DNA of 64,000 bases from Escherichia phage 310Ecol104PP. The stretch is from the sequence record OR062946.1; one strand, given 5' to 3'. The translations under genes and the position numbers were made by a program. Under the pieces are notes generated by a model. It saw only the letters and a program-made list of their open reading frames with translations. It was not told where the DNA came from and made no database searches. Each line of letters starts with the position of its first letter. The first letter of the stretch is position 1. Shown piece by piece: positions 6,975 to 52,626 of this stretch.

Positions 6975-7823
6975 TTAATCAACTGCTATTGGATGAATAG
7001 CATTAAACTTATGAAATGCTTCTGATTTTTCTTTACGTGAAACGCACATGCGAAGAACCTTTAATGGTTCGTCTTCTTCACCCAACGATTTTCGTTTTTC
7101 AATATTAGAAGTTTTCCAACGAGCTTGCTCTGGAAACTCTCTATTAATCTGCTCAAGCGCTCTATTATGTTTAGAATTACTACGAATTGAACTGCACCCG
7201 CCAGGAGCTTGTGCTTTTCCAGATACAACTAGATATTTGAACAAGGCCAAATGCGGATAACCTTGATTAATTAAATTGAGAAATGCATACATATCTTCGC
7301 ATAAATCAATTTTTCCATACCCAATTTGTTCTGTCGTAAGTTTTCCGAGGTCATACCATGTATTCGTGAATCCATATGAATTTTCACGATAATTACCCCA
7401 AGATGAAGTAATTTTAAAAATAGGTAGACGAGCATGGCCATGATAATACCCGCAATCCATGGCATCCTCAACATATTGAATCAATTCATAGAACTGTTCA
7501 CGAGTCAATTGATTGACTTTATCTACGCAACGACGATCATCTCTTTTTCGCATTGAACTCATACGAATAGTAGTATCATCGTCAATCATCCAGATTCGTT
7601 GACCTGCATACATATCGGTAATTGCTTTACGAGTACCGGCAATTCCGTTTACATCATCAGGAATAGTTATAATTTTAGCTCTAGACCCATAGGCATCATA
7701 ATAAGCTTTTTCTTCATGTTCACGCACTACAATATGGGGTTCATAATCAGTCGGAAACATATCAAGGGCAGAAACTGCCCCTACACGTTGATAGCTCGGA
7801 ATTACGAATTGAATCATTTCCAC
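6975..7823 (-). CDS. glycosyltransferase at the beta-gt locus (not T4 beta-gt; possibly beta-alpha-glucosyl-HMC transferase type)
   Basis: 282 aa; FVIPSYQR and IWMIDDD (DXD-like) motifs; does not match recalled T4 beta-gt (MKIAIINMGNN...). Confidence 0.6.
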   Translation of the reverse strand: MEMIQFVIPSYQRVGAVSALDMFPTDYEPHIVVREHEEKAYYDAYGSRAKIITIPDDVNGIAGTRKAITDMYAGQRIWMIDDDTTIRMSSMRKRDDRRCVDKVNQLTREQFYELIQYVEDAMDCGYYHGHARLPIFKITSSWGNYRENSYGFTNTWYDLGKLTTEQIGYGKIDLCEDMYAFLNLINQGYPHLALFKYLVVSGKAQAPGGCSSIRSNSKHNRALEQINREFPEQARWKTSNIEKRKSLGEEDEPLKVLRMCVSRKEKSEAFHKFNAIHPIAVD

Positions 7824-8554
7824 TCACCGTTATAATCTTTTTTCACAATATGAGTTTCGCCAGTATTCCACCAATGATCAACCAAGTAAAAATGACGAGA
7901 ATATACATGAAGACTTCCAACATTCCATATAATAGAGCCTGCTTTATACTGACGAGTTGAATCGCCTGCATTCAAATCAGATACTAATTTATCTAATACG
8001 TATTTTTGCCATGCATAATCATTACGGAATCCGAAGACCACGTCATTTGAGCGCATGCTTACTACTGCATTGACTTTCTTATCACGAATCAGGTACTGTA
8101 CCGTATTAGTACACATGAAATCTGACATGCCATCTTTATTGTAGTCAAATTGCATGGATGGACGAGTATAAATCATGATACCACGTCGAGAATCAGGATT
8201 TTGACCAAGTTCAGCTAAACACATATCATACTGGGCATAGTTATCTTCTGACCAAATAGCCCAACCATAATTCGAGTTAATTTCGCCTTTAGAAGATGCT
8301 ACCTGCTGCCAAATCTTTGGTGTTTCACCTGGAATATCTTTAACAAACAAGCTCTTAGATTTATACCATTCAAGTTCACGCTGAATGTATTCATCATTAA
8401 GAGCGCCAAAAATAAACGGTTCATCTGCTACAAATGATGCGCCAATAATTTCAATAGTTTTAACACCAGTTTTATCAACTACGAAATCTTTTTCTTTTAA
8501 TGCAAGCCCCAAATGAAGACGGATTTCTTCAACTGTCATAGAGTCACTAATCAT
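7814..8554 (-). CDS. 42: dCMP hydroxymethylase gp42
   Basis: 246 aa; matches recalled T4 gp42. Confidence 0.95.
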   Translation of the reverse strand: MISDSMTVEEIRLHLGLALKEKDFVVDKTGVKTIEIIGASFVADEPFIFGALNDEYIQRELEWYKSKSLFVKDIPGETPKIWQQVASSKGEINSNYGWAIWSEDNYAQYDMCLAELGQNPDSRRGIMIYTRPSMQFDYNKDGMSDFMCTNTVQYLIRDKKVNAVVSMRSNDVVFGFRNDYAWQKYVLDKLVSDLNAGDSTRQYKAGSIIWNVGSLHVYSRHFYLVDHWWNTGETHIVKKDYNGEWK

Positions 8555-8561
8555 TTAAACC

Positions 8562-8711
8562 TCAATTGATACATTCATATTTAACTTGTAACAGTAATAA
8601 ACCCCACCCTATGATAAGAGTTGGAATCATAGCAGGAACTGTTACGCTATAGTATATACTTATTATAACCATTAAGATTAAAAGCAACACTGCTATAATT
8701 TTGCTTTTCAT
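8562..8711 (-). CDS. small hydrophobic protein, 49 aa
   Basis: own translation MKSKIIAVLLLILMVIISIYYSVTVPAMIPTLIIGWGLLLLQVKYECIN; ATGA overlap with imm stop. Confidence 0.4.
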   Translation of the reverse strand: MKSKIIAVLLLILMVIISIYYSVTVPAMIPTLIIGWGLLLLQVKYECIN

Positions 8712-8959
8712 TCCTTCTCTCTGATGATAATTACCTGATTTGGCTGTACAGACTTTTTAGTTTCACCCGCAATTGACCAAATAAATGTAATAAACCAACC
8801 AATAATTGACCAGTTAAACAGTAAAGATGTGAAAAAGATTCCTACTGTCGATTTTGACCCACGCATCAAGGCGATGAACCATGGAAGCATGTATATAATA
8901 ATAGCCAACACGCCTGAAACTAAAACCATAAAAATTGAACCTGCTACTAAAGTTTCCAT
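8708..8959 (-). CDS. imm: Imm superinfection immunity membrane protein
   Basis: 83 aa, two hydrophobic helices; position between 43 and 42. Confidence 0.75.
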   Translation of the reverse strand: METLVAGSIFMVLVSGVLAIIIYMLPWFIALMRGSKSTVGIFFTSLLFNWSIIGWFITFIWSIAGETKKSVQPNQVIIIREKE

Positions 8960-8966
8960 CTTTTCC

Positions 8967-9347
8967 TCACTTAGTCAAATTTTTTACGCATGAATTATAA
9001 GAATTCACTACATACTCCATCGGAGCATTTTTACCAGTACGCCATTGGTAATTATTAGCCCAATTAGCCCAAATTTCGGCGCAGTAGTTTTCAATTTTTT
9101 CTTCGCGTGTAATTACATCCGAATTACGATATGCTTGAGCAGATTCATCTGGACGAATAGCTTCGTCAAAATTCTCCTGCATTTGTTCTACTGTCTGTTT
9201 TGGAGCTTCTTTATAACACTTGACATTAGGATTATAAAATTTGCTTGAACAGTTTACAATTTTTCCTACATCAGACTGATTTACTACCGGTCCTTGAGCT
9301 ACACAACCAGTAAGACCTAATGCAATAACCAAAATAGCGATTTTCAT
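8967..9347 (-). CDS. predicted lipoprotein, 126 aa
   Basis: N-term MKIAILVIALGLTGC with lipobox LTGC; Cys-containing mature part. Confidence 0.6.
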   Translation of the reverse strand: MKIAILVIALGLTGCVAQGPVVNQSDVGKIVNCSSKFYNPNVKCYKEAPKQTVEQMQENFDEAIRPDESAQAYRNSDVITREEKIENYCAEIWANWANNYQWRTGKNAPMEYVVNSYNSCVKNLTK

Positions 9348-9359
9348 AATAATTTCCTC

Positions 9360-9611
9360 TTAAAACTTAACAAATAGCTTTAAAGCATCTTCAGTTTTAA
9401 TTCCTTTTCTTACACCCATAACAGAAATTGGCTGTGACTGAAATTTTCCTTTACCATTATAAATTTCTAATCCAGTCACCATTCCATTTTGTTCTATAAT
9501 ACCGTAAGTGTTACCTTCATTTTCAAATTCTTTAACTTTAAAAAGTTTATTCGCTTTTTCTACGTTAACAACTTTTAAATTTTGAATAAAATTAGTTTGA
9601 ATATTTTTCAT
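9360..9611 (-). CDS. hypothetical protein, 83 aa
   Basis: ORF track; GGAGG SD and early promoter immediately upstream. Confidence 0.55.
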   Translation of the reverse strand: MKNIQTNFIQNLKVVNVEKANKLFKVKEFENEGNTYGIIEQNGMVTGLEIYNGKGKFQSQPISVMGVRKGIKTEDALKLFVKF

Positions 9612-9639
9612 TTTGTGTTCCTCCGTAGTTGATAGTTGT

Positions 9640-9669
9640 ATAGTACCATGGAAGAACAGAGATGTAAAC
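9640..9669 (-). promoter_or_regulatory. T4-type early promoter
   Basis: GTTTAC, 18 nt, TACTAT; conserved GTGG-TACTAT-ACAACTATCAACTAC-GGAGG module. Confidence 0.6.
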
Positions 9670-9750
9670 AGTTTTGTGAAAAAATTTTTAATGAATTCAA
9701 AGGGTCCAGAATCATCTGTTTTTCATAAGTATAGATTTATATTACTTGTA

Positions 9751-9773
9751 TGAAAAGGGGACCCGGAGGTCCC
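9751..9773 (-). terminator. intrinsic terminator after gene 43
   Basis: stem GGGACC/GGTCCC with 4-nt loop, then U-run on minus strand. Confidence 0.6.
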
Positions 9774-9786
9774 TAGATTTATTCTA

Positions 9787-12483
9787 TCAGCCAAACAGGA
9801 AGTCTAACGAAGCTTTTTCTTCATAGTCCATACCAGCCGATTCACACATACCAGCAAGCGGTTTAACAAACGATTTTTGGAACAAAGTTGAGTAGTCAAT
9901 CCAAGATAGTACATCAGAACGAATTTCTTTTGGAAGTTCTGTACCCGACGGCCAAGCAATGCACTTATCACCAAATGGATTTCCTTCACGTAATGGAAGA
10001 ACCATTACTTTATTTCCATCCAAAATTGGAGCTACACCCAGACCACTAACAGCTCGACGATAAGTTAGCACACCACGAATATGGAATGGGCATTTAAATC
10101 CTGGCCAACCTTTATCATCATATTTCGCTATATCGTTCGCAGTTTTTACTTCAGCAATAACTTTATAGTCAAGTTGACGATATTCTTTCTCGAAGTTTTT
10201 GTAATATTCTTGGACAGACTCTTCACCTTCCTGAAGAATACGACGAATACTTTCTTCGAGAGCTTCTTGCACTGCTTTTGGTGTTGAACTCTGCTGAGTT
10301 TCCATACCCATGATTTTTAGATGCGGTTCAGCAAATCGTTTATCTTCCATATCATAAACGTTCAGAGCATAACGCTTTTTCGCTTTCCAAAATCCGCCAA
10401 CGCCCTTTGAACCAAGTGGAGGGCAAGAAATAGCTTCACGGTCCATATGCATCAGATGCTCGCGGTTATTCATATAATCACATAACTCACGATATGCAAC
10501 ATCAATCATAGGTTCCATCTTTTTCTTACCGAACTGATTCATGAATTCAACTAAATCGTTCTGCTCTTTGAATCGGTCAAGACCAACTTTTTCAATAACT
10601 TTATCTACACAAACATATACCGAATCAGTATCACCTGCCGCGATGAAATCTTCACCATTAGTTCCACACACTTTATTCAGATATTCATTAATTTTACGAG
10701 CAATCCACTGAATACCGACTTGGCCAAAAATTGTGATAGCAGTAGCATTTCGCAAATCATAGTAACGGAAATGAATATTACCAAGAGCACCATAAAGACT
10801 GTTAATAAGAATTTTACGGTTCAGCTGATTTGTATTAGCAAGTGTAGCTGCTTTTTCACATTCCTCAATCAGACTATTGAGAACAGATTCAGTATAATTC
10901 GATAGCTCATTTAAGAAATCATCACTGAACTTAACATATCGTTCAACTTCTGGTTTAGTTGAACAAGACCCTGCGCCTTTCATAATAATCTTTTTAATAG
11001 CTTCGGCATTCATTTCTTCAGCGAACATTTTCTTTTTCCAGTCTTTACGCTGGAAAAATACTTTAGCGATTTCCTTTGGAATGATACCTTCTTGATGCTT
11101 ATCATACATCCATCCATTCGGAGAACAAGAATATTCATCACTCGGTTTAGGAGCTGTTCCTGCAATATATTCATGAATTGGATGAACTTTAAACTGCCCA
11201 CGAATAGTCTCAGGACTAATGTTAACCTGACGAATAATGCTCGGATACAGAGACGTCAAGTCAAAACTCATAATATATCGACGAGCAATTGGTTTAGGTT
11301 CAAATACAAATGCACCCGGAAAACTTTGTTTAACGTGCGAACCTTGTTGAGGAATAACCTTGTGTTCACCTTTCAATGAGTTAAAAATGATAGCATCCCA
11401 AGTTTTAATAGGACTCATTACACCAGAAAAAGGCATTTTAGCATAATAAGACATACTTAAAACTAGATCAATAAACCCGCGAATTTTATCAATTGCTTGA
11501 ACTGATTCTACGTCAATGATGTTATAACTAATGTATCGTTGATGATTAGTCTCACGAAGTTTATTAATAGGACCGTCGTATGGTAATTTACCTTTTTTGG
11601 TTTCATGTTGAGCAACTGATTCCAAAGAGAATGACGGCAAATTAGTAAAAGCAAATTTCTTGTACAAATCTAAATAATCAAGAATAGATACGCCATCAAT
11701 AGAATAAATTTCTTTGCTACCGTACATATTTTGAATTAGTTTAGATTTTACCCGACCGATTGGAGAGAAACGTTTCATACTGCGTTCGCCCAGAATCATT
11801 TTAACACGATTCATGATATATGGAACGTCAAATCCCTCAATATTCCAACCAGTAAAAATAGCAGGTCGTTTCTGTTCCCAGAGATTAATATATTCCATGA
11901 GCATATCACGCTCATTATCGAATGGCATATAAATTACTCGGTCAAGAATTTCTTGAGGAACTTCATCACCACCTTCACAGTCAAGCTTAGCAGCTAACTT
12001 TGCATCCCATTTTGATACTGAACCGTACATTGAATTCAAAAGATCGAAAACATAAAAACGATCATCAATTGAATCGTAATGAGTGATAGCATCAATTTCA
12101 TATTCTGCTTTCATTGGGTCAGGAAATTTATCACCGGTAACCTCAATGTCACAGTTAGCTACACGAACAAATTTTCGGTCATAAACAATTTCTGAACCAT
12201 ATGTATCACTGATATAAGCGAGTTTAAAGTCGTTCATACCGAGAGCTTCGAGACCGATGTCTTCCATTCGCTTCATCCAATCTCGAGCATCTTTCATTGA
12301 TGGAAATTTTTGAGGAGCACAATTTTTACCATAGATGTCTTTGTATTTTGACTCTTCCTTACAATGTCTAAACATAGTTGGAAGATATTCTACTTCACGG
12401 GTACGTTCCTTTCCGTTTTCATCAATATAACGTTCAACAATGTTATTTCCGACTGTTTCGATAGAGATATAAAATTCTTTCAT
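9787..12483 (-). CDS. 43: DNA polymerase gp43
   Basis: 898 aa; family B polymerase; matches recalled T4 gp43 N-terminus and length. Confidence 0.97.
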   Translation of the reverse strand: MKEFYISIETVGNNIVERYIDENGKERTREVEYLPTMFRHCKEESKYKDIYGKNCAPQKFPSMKDARDWMKRMEDIGLEALGMNDFKLAYISDTYGSEIVYDRKFVRVANCDIEVTGDKFPDPMKAEYEIDAITHYDSIDDRFYVFDLLNSMYGSVSKWDAKLAAKLDCEGGDEVPQEILDRVIYMPFDNERDMLMEYINLWEQKRPAIFTGWNIEGFDVPYIMNRVKMILGERSMKRFSPIGRVKSKLIQNMYGSKEIYSIDGVSILDYLDLYKKFAFTNLPSFSLESVAQHETKKGKLPYDGPINKLRETNHQRYISYNIIDVESVQAIDKIRGFIDLVLSMSYYAKMPFSGVMSPIKTWDAIIFNSLKGEHKVIPQQGSHVKQSFPGAFVFEPKPIARRYIMSFDLTSLYPSIIRQVNISPETIRGQFKVHPIHEYIAGTAPKPSDEYSCSPNGWMYDKHQEGIIPKEIAKVFFQRKDWKKKMFAEEMNAEAIKKIIMKGAGSCSTKPEVERYVKFSDDFLNELSNYTESVLNSLIEECEKAATLANTNQLNRKILINSLYGALGNIHFRYYDLRNATAITIFGQVGIQWIARKINEYLNKVCGTNGEDFIAAGDTDSVYVCVDKVIEKVGLDRFKEQNDLVEFMNQFGKKKMEPMIDVAYRELCDYMNNREHLMHMDREAISCPPLGSKGVGGFWKAKKRYALNVYDMEDKRFAEPHLKIMGMETQQSSTPKAVQEALEESIRRILQEGEESVQEYYKNFEKEYRQLDYKVIAEVKTANDIAKYDDKGWPGFKCPFHIRGVLTYRRAVSGLGVAPILDGNKVMVLPLREGNPFGDKCIAWPSGTELPKEIRSDVLSWIDYSTLFQKSFVKPLAGMCESAGMDYEEKASLDFLFG

Positions 12484-15194: not shown

Positions 15195-15249
15195 GTAATT
15201 TCCTTCAATTCAAATGAGATTTAATTTTATAACTAATTTAATAAAGCAA

Positions 15250-21131: not shown

Positions 21132-21375
21132 TTAATATCCTCATTGTTTTGGTTTATTTTACAAAAAAATTTATAAAGCAATATAGGAGCAAAAGCTCCT
21201 ATCCGCATAATACACCATACAGAGGCTCATTAGAGCTTCTAAATTTTATACGTTTATATGTTATAGTTCCTTCCGCTTTAGCTTTATCATGAGACTCTTT
21301 AAAACGTCTCATCATTTCTACTTTAGAGGAACGAATTTTATTATAATCTATTTCAGAAGTCTGGGTGTTCATCTT

Positions 21376-27190: not shown

Positions 27191-27660
27191 TTTAAACTCT
27201 TTCTAAGCTGCTTCTTAAATGAAGCTATTAACTGTGTTTTGGTGTCAGATTCATTATATTCAAATCCTCTTTGAAGCATCTCGGCCATCATTTCCTCTTT
27301 TCCTAAACGAGAAAATTCCTTTGATTTATCTCCAACAAAGTTAGGGTGAATATTATTTTGGGTGTAATCGGATTTTAAATAAGTAAGTAAATTTTCTAAC
27401 CATTCAAGATAATCAACACCTTGTCCCTTTAAGCCAGAACGATTAAATTTGTGCTTCATTTGACCTTCTGCAGCATTGCAGAGATTACAAAGCAATCCAC
27501 GTACCTTTCCTGCTTTTGGTCCATTTAATTCATGGTCATGATCGAGGTGATTAGCTTGAACATCAGGATTTAGTTCTCGTTGGCAAATTAAGCATTTACC
27601 GTTTTGCGCATCATAAAATTTCTGTTTTTCTTCTTTATATAATTTGCCAGTCAATAACAT
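27187..27660 (-). CDS. 49: endonuclease VII gp49 (Holliday junction resolvase)
   Basis: 157 aa MLLTGKLYKEEKQKFYDAQNGKCLICQRELN; matches recalled T4 endo VII. Confidence 0.95.
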   Translation of the reverse strand: MLLTGKLYKEEKQKFYDAQNGKCLICQRELNPDVQANHLDHDHELNGPKAGKVRGLLCNLCNAAEGQMKHKFNRSGLKGQGVDYLEWLENLLTYLKSDYTQNNIHPNFVGDKSKEFSRLGKEEMMAEMLQRGFEYNESDTKTQLIASFKKQLRKSLK

Positions 27661-34877: not shown

Positions 34878-34905
34878 TTTGTGTTCCTCCGTAGTTGATA
34901 GTTGT

Positions 34906-34935
34906 ATAGTACCACAGAGGAACGGTCTTGTAAAC
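34906..34935 (-). promoter_or_regulatory. T4-type early promoter
   Basis: GTTTAC, 18 nt, TACTAT; 40-nt block identical to 9611..9650. Confidence 0.6.
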
Positions 34936-52553: not shown

Positions 52554-52596
52554 TTCGTTCTCCAAGTTGTTTTCTGTATCAGTAGTTGATAGTTGT

Positions 52597-52626
52597 ATAG
52601 TACCACGGAAAGACAAGGATGTAAAC
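52597..52626 (-). promoter_or_regulatory. T4-type early promoter
   Basis: GTTTAC, 18 nt, TACTAT. Confidence 0.55.

What the first reader, a model, noticed from the sequence alone, without database searches (positions are those of the whole stretch)
8562..9611. Accessory envelope-protein block around imm: lipoprotein, small membrane protein and an 83-aa protein between genes 42 and 43
The 42-43 interval here is about 1.2 kb. Besides the Imm membrane protein it contains a 126-aa predicted lipoprotein (lipobox LTGC, Cys-rich mature part), an 83-aa protein with its own early promoter, and a 49-aa hydrophobic peptide. In T4 this interval is essentially imm plus a small ORF as I recall. The lipoprotein sits next to the superinfection immunity gene, so it may also act in superinfection exclusion or envelope modification.
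Basis: partly seen in the sequence, partly recalled or inferred. Interest (0 to 1): 0.5.

Follow-up and report, generated by a model that had tools for sequence, protein, structure and literature searches.

The report
Known T-even imm operon with lipoprotein
The four small genes between the hydroxymethylase and DNA polymerase genes are the ordinary, already annotated T-even early operon (orf83, imm.1, imm, 42.1); phage T4 lacks only the 83-aa gene, and the one mildly new point is that a lipoprotein gene sits beside the superinfection-immunity gene imm in every T4-like genus I sampled.

Summary
All four ORFs exist at the stated coordinates, on the minus strand. They are tightly coupled and lie behind a terminator and a T4-type early promoter. 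The comparison with T4 is mostly wrong. The 126-aa lipoprotein is T4 gene imm.1 (98% identical; Pfam DUF5481). The 49-aa peptide is gene 42.1, which is intact in T4. The hydrophobic 83-aa protein is Imm. Only the soluble 83-aa ORF is absent from T4. It is already annotated in T2 and RB51, occurs in about 30 of about 500 Tequatrovirus records, and has a 54% homolog at another locus in Dhakavirus. Its fold and function remain unknown.

The link between the lipoprotein and imm holds up by synteny. In all eight sampled Tevenvirinae lineages (seven named genera plus Yersinia phage P8), a lipoprotein with an L-[TSA]-G-C lipobox lies beside imm. The gene order differs between genera, and in Mosigvirus the pair has moved next to spackle. 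T4 omics data class imm.1 as early at both RNA and protein level. I found no published function.

Best reading: Imm.1 is a periplasm-facing, probably outer-membrane lipoprotein that assists envelope-level superinfection exclusion. That function is inferred, not shown. The gene content is already known, and interest is low to moderate.

The parts
9758..9773 (-). Intrinsic-terminator-like hairpin (GGGACCTCCGGGTCCC followed by CTTTTC) just after the gene 43 stop codon. Together with the promoter below it forms a PeSL-type terminator/early-promoter cassette.
   Evidence: Terminator scan. Conserved in T4 and T2. PeSL concept from PMC4122927.
9640..9669 (-). T4-type early promoter: -35 GTTTACA, 17-nt spacer, extended -10 TG-G-TACTAT, with an upstream A/T tract. 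It drives orf83, imm.1, imm, 42.1 and probably 42.
   Evidence: Promoter scan. The same sequence precedes imm.1 directly in T4. The promoter-plus-leader pattern occurs 3 times in the window against 0 expected. T4 imm.1 is classed as early RNA.
9360..9611 (-). orf83: soluble, basic (pI 9.6) 83-aa protein with no signal peptide and no transmembrane segment. It equals T2_046 and RB51ncORF048c (phrog_18567). It is the only gene of the block that T4 lacks. Function unknown.
   Evidence: GGAGG Shine-Dalgarno at 9624-9620.
8967..9347 (-). imm.1: 126-aa prolipoprotein with signal peptide and lipobox LTGC (Cys15) and Val at +2. The mature domain is 112 aa with two inferred disulfides (C33-C44, C89-C120). 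Pfam DUF5481, phrog_1754.
   Evidence: Pfam 234.9 bits against a cut-off of 27. PHROG. 98% identical to T4 imm.1. Lipobox rule. Lipobox conserved in 10 of 10 imm-adjacent homologs or analogs. GAGGA Shine-Dalgarno at 9359-9355.
8708..8959 (-). imm: 83-aa inner-membrane superinfection immunity protein.
   Evidence: PF14373, 58.1 bits against a cut-off of 27.9. phrog_1039. Hydrophobic segments. 1010 phage records. Mechanism (binds tape measure protein gp29) from bioRxiv 10.64898/2026.03.06.709160.
8562..8711 (-). 42.1: 49-aa very hydrophobic peptide (GRAVY 1.58, two hydrophobic stretches). Its start overlaps the imm stop (ATGA). Conserved C-terminal motif P-x-MIPTL-x2-GW-x6-Q-x-[KR]-Y-[EN]-C-[IF]-N.
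   Evidence: phrog_3610. Annotated as 42.1 in RB51, RB32 and T4T. Intact in T4. Homologs in Mosigvirus, Kanagawavirus, Dhakavirus and Gaprivervirus.
7814..8554 (-). Gene 42 (dCMP hydroxymethylase), the downstream flank of the block. Its Shine-Dalgarno sequence overlaps the 42.1 stop codon.
9787..12483 (-). Gene 43 (DNA polymerase), the upstream flank of the block.

Best explanation
The region is the standard early operon of T2-like Tequatroviruses. After the gene 43 terminator, a generic T4 early promoter transcribes orf83, imm.1, imm and 42.1, and continues into gene 42. All cistrons have strong ribosome-binding sites and abut or overlap.

- Imm is the inner-membrane protein that blocks DNA entry of superinfecting phage by binding the tape measure protein gp29 (published).
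- Imm.1 is a Sec-exported prolipoprotein. After Lgt/LspA/Lnt processing at Cys15 it has no Asp at +2, so it should be carried by the Lol system to the inner leaflet of the outer membrane. It would then present a 112-aa, disulfide-bonded, largely helical domain to the periplasm.
- Because a lipoprotein of this kind stays next to imm through rearrangements in all eight sampled Tevenvirinae lineages (seven named genera plus Yersinia phage P8), and is made early like Imm and Spackle, I infer that it is an accessory periplasmic component of envelope-level superinfection exclusion or envelope protection. It is not a receptor mask.
- 42.1 is a conserved two-helix membrane peptide, often translationally coupled to imm. 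Its role is unknown.
- orf83 is a rare cytoplasmic orphan gene sitting just behind a PeSL-type terminator/promoter cassette. It is gained or lost there, probably by recombination at that cassette.

Shown: gene identities, operon anatomy, lipobox conservation, synteny, and early expression of T4 imm.1. Inferred: lipidation, outer-membrane sorting, and any role in exclusion.
For: - Gene identities: Pfam and PHROG hits, and annotation in T4, T2 and RB51.
- Difference from T4: only orf83, by a three-way DNA alignment and an ORF list of T4.
- Operon anatomy: terminator and promoter; Shine-Dalgarno sequences and overlaps read.
- Lipoprotein status: lipobox rule met and +2 is Val. The lipobox is kept in all 10 imm-adjacent proteins from 8 lineages, none with Asp at +2.
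- Cys pairing: both Cys33 and Cys44 are absent together in Mosigvirus, while the Cys89/Cys120 equivalents are invariant.
- Synteny with imm: PhAPEC2 has dmd, imm.1, imm, sp. Moon, Roth01, KP1 and ABTNLPp2 have 43, lipoprotein, imm, 42. JS10, DK-13 and P8 have 43, imm, 42.1, lipoprotein. Metagenomic non-lipidated homologs are also directly upstream of imm.
- Record counts are consistent with near co-occurrence: Imm 1010; lipoprotein 656 + 132 + 210.
- One PHROG (1754) covers all of these lipoproteins.
- T4 imm.1 is early at RNA and protein level, in the same class as sp.
- Imm.1 is at least 95% identical in 498 of 501 Tequatrovirus records, including T2 and T4. These phages use different receptors (established knowledge), which argues against receptor masking.
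- orf83 is rare and mobile and sits behind a repeated promoter cassette, as in PeSL-mediated shuffling.
Against: - Imm alone expressed from a plasmid excludes T4, so Imm.1 is not required for Imm function. No paper found assigns it any phenotype.
- Adjacency in T4-like genomes can reflect shared early timing rather than shared function.
- Homology between the Tequatrovirus/Mosigvirus group and the other genera rests on PHROG membership. My own mature-domain tests were not significant. The only significant hhalign match covers the signal peptide.
- Some homologs have lost the lipid anchor, so lipidation is not essential to the domain.
- The structure model is weak (pLDDT 62) and has no structural neighbours, so no mechanism can be read from the fold.
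- imm homologs outside the Tevenvirinae have no lipoprotein neighbour.
Confidence: 0.6

Rival explanations
1. Imm.1 is a receptor-masking exclusion lipoprotein of the T5 Llp / phi80 Cor type. It would bind the phage's own outer-membrane receptor from the periplasmic side, blocking adsorption of further phage and inactivation of progeny on debris.
For: It is a small early lipoprotein next to an exclusion gene. Llp is the precedent for such a mechanism (PMC9586334, listed).
Against: Imm.1 is at least 95% identical in 498 of 501 Tequatrovirus records, including T2 and T4, which use different receptors (FadL/OmpF versus OmpC; established knowledge). A receptor mask should co-vary with receptor specificity. 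There is no sequence or fold similarity to any solved structure. Classical T-even exclusion acts after adsorption (background cited).
Confidence: 0.07
2. Imm.1 and 42.1 have nothing to do with exclusion. They are early envelope proteins with another job, such as modulating lysis timing or lysis inhibition, envelope stress, or host periplasmic enzymes. They sit next to imm only because early membrane-protein genes are co-transcribed.
For: Imm works alone. 42.1 stays near gene 43 in Mosigvirus and Kanagawavirus when imm is elsewhere, which shows that position in this interval is not always functional linkage. No phenotype is known.
Against: The lipoprotein, unlike 42.1, moved together with imm to the dmd-sp interval in Mosigvirus. 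It stays adjacent to imm in both gene orders. That is hard to explain by timing alone in genomes with many early transcription units.
Confidence: 0.28
3. The 83-aa ORF (orf83) is the functionally interesting accessory gene: an early cytoplasmic host-takeover or anti-defence factor that T2-like phages carry and T4 does not.
For: It is patchy: 30 Tequatrovirus and 7 Dhakavirus records, at different loci. It is the first cistron after an early promoter. It is small and basic with no export signal. These features are typical of phage accessory genes exchanged at PeSL cassettes.
Against: No homolog of known function exists in Pfam, PHROGs, PADLOC, NCBIfam, 5.8 billion clustered proteins, 1.84 billion representatives or the PDB. 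The weak hits to repeat proteins belong to three unrelated families and are spurious. The model has low confidence. Nothing ties it to the envelope or to imm.
Confidence: 0.25
4. Imm.1 is the outer-membrane spanin subunit or another lysis component.
For: It is a small outer-membrane-type lipoprotein.
Against: It is expressed early, not late. No adjacent or embedded inner-membrane spanin partner is present. T4 spanins are the pseT.3/pseT.2 products (established knowledge). The mature domain is far larger than typical o-spanins.
Confidence: 0.02

Closest known systems
T4 gene imm.1 (NP_049661, UniProt P18057; Pfam DUF5481 / PF17578; phrog_1754)
   Same: 98% identical, in the same position directly upstream of imm, with the same lipobox (LAGC in T4, LTGC here) and the same four Cys residues in the mature part.
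   Different: A one-base indel at the 3' end gives 126 instead of 125 residues. In T4 the gene directly follows the early promoter, whereas here orf83 intervenes.
T2_046 / RB51ncORF048c / RB68_047 hypothetical protein (phrog_18567)
   Same: 96-99% identical to the 83-aa ORF and in the same position between the early promoter and imm.1.
   Different: Nothing of substance. The Dhakavirus homolog (IME08 orf92, 54% identical) lies between rI.-1 and mobD.3 instead.
T4 Imm (PF14373), superinfection immunity protein
   Same: The 8708-8959 product is a 97-100% match to Imm of T-even phages.
   Different: The window lacks the upstream in-frame ATG that gives a 94-aa version in T4.
T5 Llp and phi80/N15 Cor exclusion lipoproteins
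   Same: Small phage-encoded lipoproteins made early and linked to exclusion of further infection.
   Different: There is no sequence or structural similarity. Imm.1 does not co-vary with receptor specificity, and its target is unknown.
T4 Spackle (Sp), periplasmic inhibitor of the gp5 tail lysozyme
   Same: An early periplasmic, disulfide-containing small protein of the exclusion system. In Mosigvirus the sp gene lies immediately after imm.1-imm. It is in the same early RNA / early protein class.
   Different: No detectable similarity. Sp is soluble, whereas Imm.1 is lipid-anchored in cultured phages.
PeSL (promoter-early stem-loop) cassettes of T4-like phages (PMC2839356, PMC4122927)
   Same: A stem-loop terminator followed by a conserved early promoter, with a gene indel right next to it. 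The promoter sequence is repeated elsewhere in the genome.
   Different: I did not show a recombination junction. T4 has 22 unique bases at the site rather than a clean deletion.

Membership tests
Imm_superinfect (PF14373) | Profile match above the Pfam gathering score | tested here: met
   58.1 bits against a cut-off of 27.9 for 8708-8959; phrog_1039 'immunity to superinfection', E 8e-32.
Imm_superinfect (PF14373) | Small integral membrane protein with hydrophobic helices | tested here: met
   Kyte-Doolittle 19-residue windows of at least 1.6 over residues 1-35 and 39-64.
Imm_superinfect (PF14373) | Blocks DNA entry of superinfecting phage by binding the tape measure protein | not testable with these tools
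   Known for T4 Imm from bioRxiv 10.64898/2026.03.06.709160. Inferred here from 97-100% identity to Imm of T-even phages.
DUF5481 / Imm.1 (PF17578, phrog_1754) | Full-length profile match above threshold | tested here: met
   234.9 bits against a cut-off of 27, covering residues 22-124 on profile positions 1-103 of 103; phrog_1754 E 1.8e-44.
DUF5481 / Imm.1 (PF17578, phrog_1754) | Position directly next to imm | tested here: met
   Window, T4, T2 and RB51, Mosigvirus, metagenomic contigs.
Bacterial lipoprotein (SPase II substrate, PROSITE PS51257-type lipobox) | Basic n-region, hydrophobic h-region, and [LVI][ASTVI][GAS]C lipobox with the Cys within the first 35 residues | tested here: met
   MKIAILVIALGLTGC matches the rule, with Cys15. 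The lipobox is kept in 10 of 10 imm-adjacent proteins from 8 lineages.
Bacterial lipoprotein (SPase II substrate, PROSITE PS51257-type lipobox) | Actual diacylglyceryl modification and LspA cleavage | not testable with these tools
   Needs palmitate labelling or globomycin treatment. Homologs P0010 and P0011 have SPase-I-type sites instead.
Bacterial lipoprotein (SPase II substrate, PROSITE PS51257-type lipobox) | Outer-membrane sorting (no Asp at +2) | tested here: met
   +2 is Val here and G, A, Q or S in relatives. The sorting rule itself is established knowledge. The actual location was not tested.
Receptor-masking exclusion lipoproteins (T5 Llp, Cor) | Sequence or fold similarity to Llp or Cor | tested here: not met
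   No PDB sequence hit. No Foldseek hit with E below 3, although the model has low confidence.
Receptor-masking exclusion lipoproteins (T5 Llp, Cor) | Specificity that tracks the phage's receptor | tested here: not met
   At least 95% identity in 498 of 501 Tequatrovirus records, including T2 and T4, which use different receptors (established knowledge).
Spanin (o-spanin) | Late expression with an adjacent or embedded i-spanin partner | tested here: not met
   Early RNA and protein in T4. The neighbours are orf83 and imm.
PeSL terminator/early-promoter cassette | Stem-loop followed by a conserved early promoter, repeated in the genome, flanking indels | tested here: met
   Hairpin at 9773-9758 and promoter at 9669-9640. 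Three copies of the promoter-plus-leader pattern against 0 expected. The orf83 indel is immediately downstream. The same arrangement precedes the Dhakavirus homolog.
PHROG 1754 as one homologous family across genera | Significant similarity of the mature domains between the Tequatrovirus/Mosigvirus group and the Moon/Jiaoda/Gelderland/Gapriver/Dhaka group | tested here: inconclusive
   All match phrog_1754 over their full length with E from 2e-15 to 1e-52. Pairwise phmmer on mature domains gives no significant link between the two groups. hhalign on mature domains is collinear but has E 0.04-0.07.

The most novel reading that the evidence does not exclude
The Imm.1-type lipoprotein is a so far undescribed third component of T-even superinfection exclusion, alongside Imm (inner membrane, binds the tape measure protein) and Spackle (periplasm, inhibits the tail lysozyme). 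It would act from the outer-membrane side of the periplasm on the incoming tail tip or on the envelope, and would have co-evolved with Imm throughout the Tevenvirinae.
Probability: 0.3. Interest if true: 0.55.

Novelty: already known. Interest (0 to 1): 0.27.

Why it matters
As a genome feature it changes little. The block is the annotated T2/RB51 arrangement, and T4 differs by one small orphan gene.

The useful outcome is a concrete, cheap experiment. Imm's mechanism has only just been worked out (it binds the tape measure protein). Yet its neighbour in every lineage sampled, an early lipoprotein detected at protein level in T4, has never been examined. A deletion and co-expression study could show whether T-even exclusion has a third, outer-membrane-anchored layer.

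It also corrects misleading database names for imm.1, such as 'iduronate sulfatase', 'tail tape measure protein' and 'immunity protein'.

Tried and rejected
1. Homology searches for orf83. The word-indexed 5.8-billion-protein search gave one cluster. Full phmmer against 1.84 billion representatives gave only the Dhakavirus homolog, plus three weak hits to repeat proteins of unrelated families (YadA stalk, FG-GAP, Big_2). I judge those spurious repeat-summed scores. IMG/VR gave nothing. Pfam, PADLOC, NCBIfam and PDB sequence searches gave nothing.
2. Structure prediction. Imm.1 reached pLDDT 62.4, with only the C-terminal helical hairpin (residues 81-125) confident. orf83 reached pLDDT 62.7. 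Foldseek against the PDB gave no hit with E below 0.6 for either. I ran no further search on such weak models.
3. Literature. Searches for imm.1 and DUF5481 returned only false matches or nothing. ORF048c hit an unrelated RB69 ORF. Miller et al. 2003 (PMC150520) is not held.
4. A MotA-box middle promoter at 9387-9364 inside the 3' end of orf83. I rejected it as a promoter for imm.1, because the start site would fall inside the imm.1 Shine-Dalgarno sequence.
5. The idea that the early promoter is specific to orf83 because the Dhakavirus homolog has a near-identical promoter and leader. I rejected this because the same 42-nt pattern occurs at two other places in the window and in T4 without the ORF.
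6. A simple deletion in T4 between the two ATGAAAAT repeats. T4's 22 unique bases do not fit this.
7. My own profile-profile proof that all imm-adjacent lipoproteins are homologous. It was inconclusive.
8. Weak hits of Imm.1 to PADLOC RT_UG34 (E 0.006) and to YidC (E 0.002, far below the cut-off). I dismissed both as noise.
Full report
**What is there**

The window is a T-even (Tequatrovirus) genome segment, and all genes in this region are on the minus strand. Gene 43 (DNA polymerase) is at 9787-12483, gene 42 (dCMP hydroxymethylase) at 7814-8554, and a TAGT-type glucosyltransferase at 6975-7823.

| Gene | Coordinates | Size | Description |
|---|---|---|---|
| orf83 | 9360-9611 | 83 aa | soluble, pI 9.6 |
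| lipoprotein | 8967-9347 | 126 aa | begins MKIAILVIALGLTGC |
| Imm | 8708-8959 | 83 aa | hydrophobic, PF14373 |
| hydrophobic peptide | 8562-8711 | 49 aa | very hydrophobic |

The interval is 1232 bp.

Read on the minus strand, the anatomy is as follows:
- The gene 43 stop is followed by a hairpin terminator at 9773-9758.
- A T4-type early promoter follows at 9669-9640 (GTTTACA, 17 nt, TG-n-TACTAT).
- orf83 has a GGAGG Shine-Dalgarno sequence at 9624-9620.
- imm.1 has a GAGGA at 9359-9355, immediately after the orf83 stop.
- imm has a GAGGA that overlaps the imm.1 stop.
- 42.1 starts within an ATGA overlap with the imm stop.
- The gene 42 Shine-Dalgarno sequence overlaps the 42.1 stop.

This is one tightly coupled early transcription unit.

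**Comparison with T4 and relatives**

Megablast of 8400-9900 finds 521 phage records, and 494 of them cover at least 80% of the query. The best match is T2 at 97.9%.

In T2 and RB51 the interval is annotated with the same genes: 42, (42.1), imm, imm.1, a hypothetical protein (T2_046 / RB51ncORF048c), and 43. In T4 RefSeq the annotation is 42, imm, imm.1, 43.

A three-way alignment and an ORF list of T4 show the following:
- imm.1 (125 aa) is 98% identical to the window's lipoprotein.
- The 49-aa ORF is intact in T4. It is not annotated in RefSeq, but it is annotated as 42.1 in T4T, RB32 and RB51.
- The only difference is that T4 has 22 unique bases where the window and T2 have the roughly 277-bp orf83 segment.

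It is right only for orf83.

**orf83**

- It forms a single 90% cluster in 5.8 billion proteins.
- An exhaustive phmmer search of 1.84 billion representatives adds only one real relative at 54% identity.
- tblastn finds it in 30 Tequatrovirus records, compared with 501 that carry imm.1. These include T2, SV76, RB27, RB51, RB68, Ac3, Ozark, UFV13 and PhiZZ30.
- It is also in 7 Dhakavirus records. In Dhakavirus it lies at a different locus, between rI.-1 and mobD.3.
- There too it is preceded by a stem-loop and a near-identical early promoter and leader.
- That promoter-plus-leader pattern is generic. It occurs three times in this window against none expected, and it stands in front of imm.1 in T4.
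- This matches the PeSL (promoter-early stem-loop) cassettes reported to mediate gene shuffling in T4-like phages (PMC4122927, PMC2839356).
- No family, fold or function could be assigned. The weak hits to repeat proteins are spurious.

**The lipoprotein (imm.1)**

- Pfam DUF5481 matches at 234.9 bits against a cut-off of 27.
- The signal peptide fits the lipobox rule, with Cys15 as the lipid site and Val at +2.
- Tequatrovirus copies are at least 95% identical in 498 of 501 records. Another 155 Mosigvirus records carry a 33-35% identical copy with the same LTGC lipobox.
- Cys33 and Cys44 are lost together in Mosigvirus, whereas the Cys89/Cys120 equivalents are invariant. This suggests disulfides C33-C44 and C89-C120.
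- The AlphaFold model is confident only for a C-terminal helical hairpin that carries the second pair.
- Nothing similar is found in the PDB by sequence or fold.

**Linkage to imm**

This is the only result that goes beyond annotation. The gene orders found are:

| Lineage (phage) | Order |
|---|---|
| Mosigvirus (PhAPEC2) | dmd, imm.1, imm, sp, 61.2 |
| Moonvirus, Jiaodavirus/Klebsiella phages, Gelderlandvirus | 43, lipoprotein, imm, 42 |
| Dhakavirus, Gaprivervirus, Yersinia phage P8 | 43, imm, 42.1, lipoprotein |

In Mosigvirus the imm.1-imm pair has left the 43-42 interval and now sits next to spackle. The 42.1 homolog stayed downstream of gene 43.

Further points:
- All ten imm-adjacent proteins have an L-[TSA]-G-C lipobox, no Asp at +2, a conserved G-[DP]-[IV]-V-x4-[VI]-G stretch after the Cys, and a C-terminal Cys pair.
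- All match phrog_1754 over their full length.
- My own tests link the proteins within two groups but not significantly between them, so homology across all genera rests on PHROGs.
- Two metagenomic DUF5481 homologs have lost the lipobox Cys and have AHA-type signal-peptidase I sites. They still lie directly upstream of imm.
- Record counts fit near-universal co-occurrence in enterobacterial Tevenvirinae: Imm 1010; lipoprotein 656 + 132 + 210.
- imm homologs in unrelated small phages have no lipoprotein neighbour.

**What is known**

A 2026 preprint shows that Imm binds the tape measure protein gp29 and that Imm alone on a plasmid excludes T4. It does not mention imm.1. A T4 time-resolved omics study lists imm.1 (P18057) as early RNA and early protein, in the same class as sp and dmd. 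I found no paper on the function of imm.1 or DUF5481.

**Mechanism**

- Shown: the operon anatomy, the lipobox and its conservation, synteny with imm, and early expression in T4.
- Inferred from established lipoprotein biogenesis (Lgt/LspA/Lnt, and Lol sorting by the +2 rule): Imm.1 is lipidated at Cys15 and delivered to the inner leaflet of the outer membrane, with its disulfide-bonded domain in the periplasm.
- Inferred from association: it contributes to envelope-level exclusion or protection together with Imm and Sp.

Receptor masking is unlikely, because Imm.1 is nearly invariant in phages that use different receptors (receptor usage is established knowledge). A spanin role is excluded by early timing and by the lack of a partner. 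The main rival is that adjacency reflects co-timing only, which is supported by the fact that Imm works alone.

**Verdict**

The block is already annotated in close relatives. The novelty class is 'already known', and interest is low to moderate. The one lead worth following is the untested Imm.1-type lipoprotein as Imm's neighbour in every Tevenvirinae lineage sampled.

Noticed in passing
window 6975-7823 (-): The glycosyltransferase downstream of gene 42 is a 282-aa TAGT-family enzyme (PF20691). It corresponds to the T2/T6-type beta-glucosyl-HMC-alpha-glucosyltransferase, not to T4's 351-aa beta-gt. It starts with GTG and overlaps the end of gene 42.
   Followed up: partly
window 9628-9669, 34894-34935, 52585-52626 (all -): There are three copies of an almost identical early promoter plus leader (GTTTAC, 17-21 nt, TACTATACAACTATCAAC), against 0 expected by chance. 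These are likely PeSL-type recombination substrates. I did not examine the genes downstream of the other two copies.
   Followed up: partly
window, whole (for example 679-702, 15224-15248, 21156-21180, 27253-27278): MotA-box middle-promoter-like patterns (TGCTTYA, 11-13 nt, TANNNT) occur 13 times against 2.4 expected, and 11 of them are on the minus strand. The one at 9364-9387 lies inside orf83 and probably does not serve imm.1.
   Followed up: partly
window 8959-8995 (-) compared with L001 3625-3658: T4 has an upstream in-frame ATG that gives a 94-aa Imm; this version was used for cryo-EM in the 2026 preprint. In this window, as in T2, a one-base difference at the imm.1 3' end puts a stop codon in that frame, so only the 83-aa Imm is possible. 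This supports the 83-aa start.
   Followed up: partly
L017 3001-3372; L018 718-1086: Metagenomic T4-like contigs carry DUF5481 homologs whose lipobox Cys is replaced (LAGF, LAFS) and which have AHA signal-peptidase I sites. These are a soluble periplasmic variant of Imm.1, still directly upstream of imm.
   Followed up: partly
L005 2495-3530 (Mosigvirus PhAPEC2): In Mosigvirus the exclusion genes are clustered as imm.1, imm, sp, between dmd and 61.2. The 42.1 homolog stays near gene 43, after an arabinose-5-phosphate isomerase gene.
   Followed up: yes
L009 1740-1883 (Gaprivervirus DK-13); L001 3228-3377 (T4 RefSeq): The conserved 42.1 small membrane ORF is unannotated in these records although intact. 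Database product names for imm.1 are inconsistent or wrong: 'iduronate sulfatase', 'immunity protein', 'capsid and scaffold protein'. orf83 is called 'tail tape measure protein' or 'recombination protein' in some records.
   Followed up: yes
window 9608-9715 (-): A 35-aa ORF spans the early promoter and ends overlapping the orf83 start. A 38-aa counterpart exists in T4. It is probably not a gene, because the promoter lies inside it.
   Followed up: no
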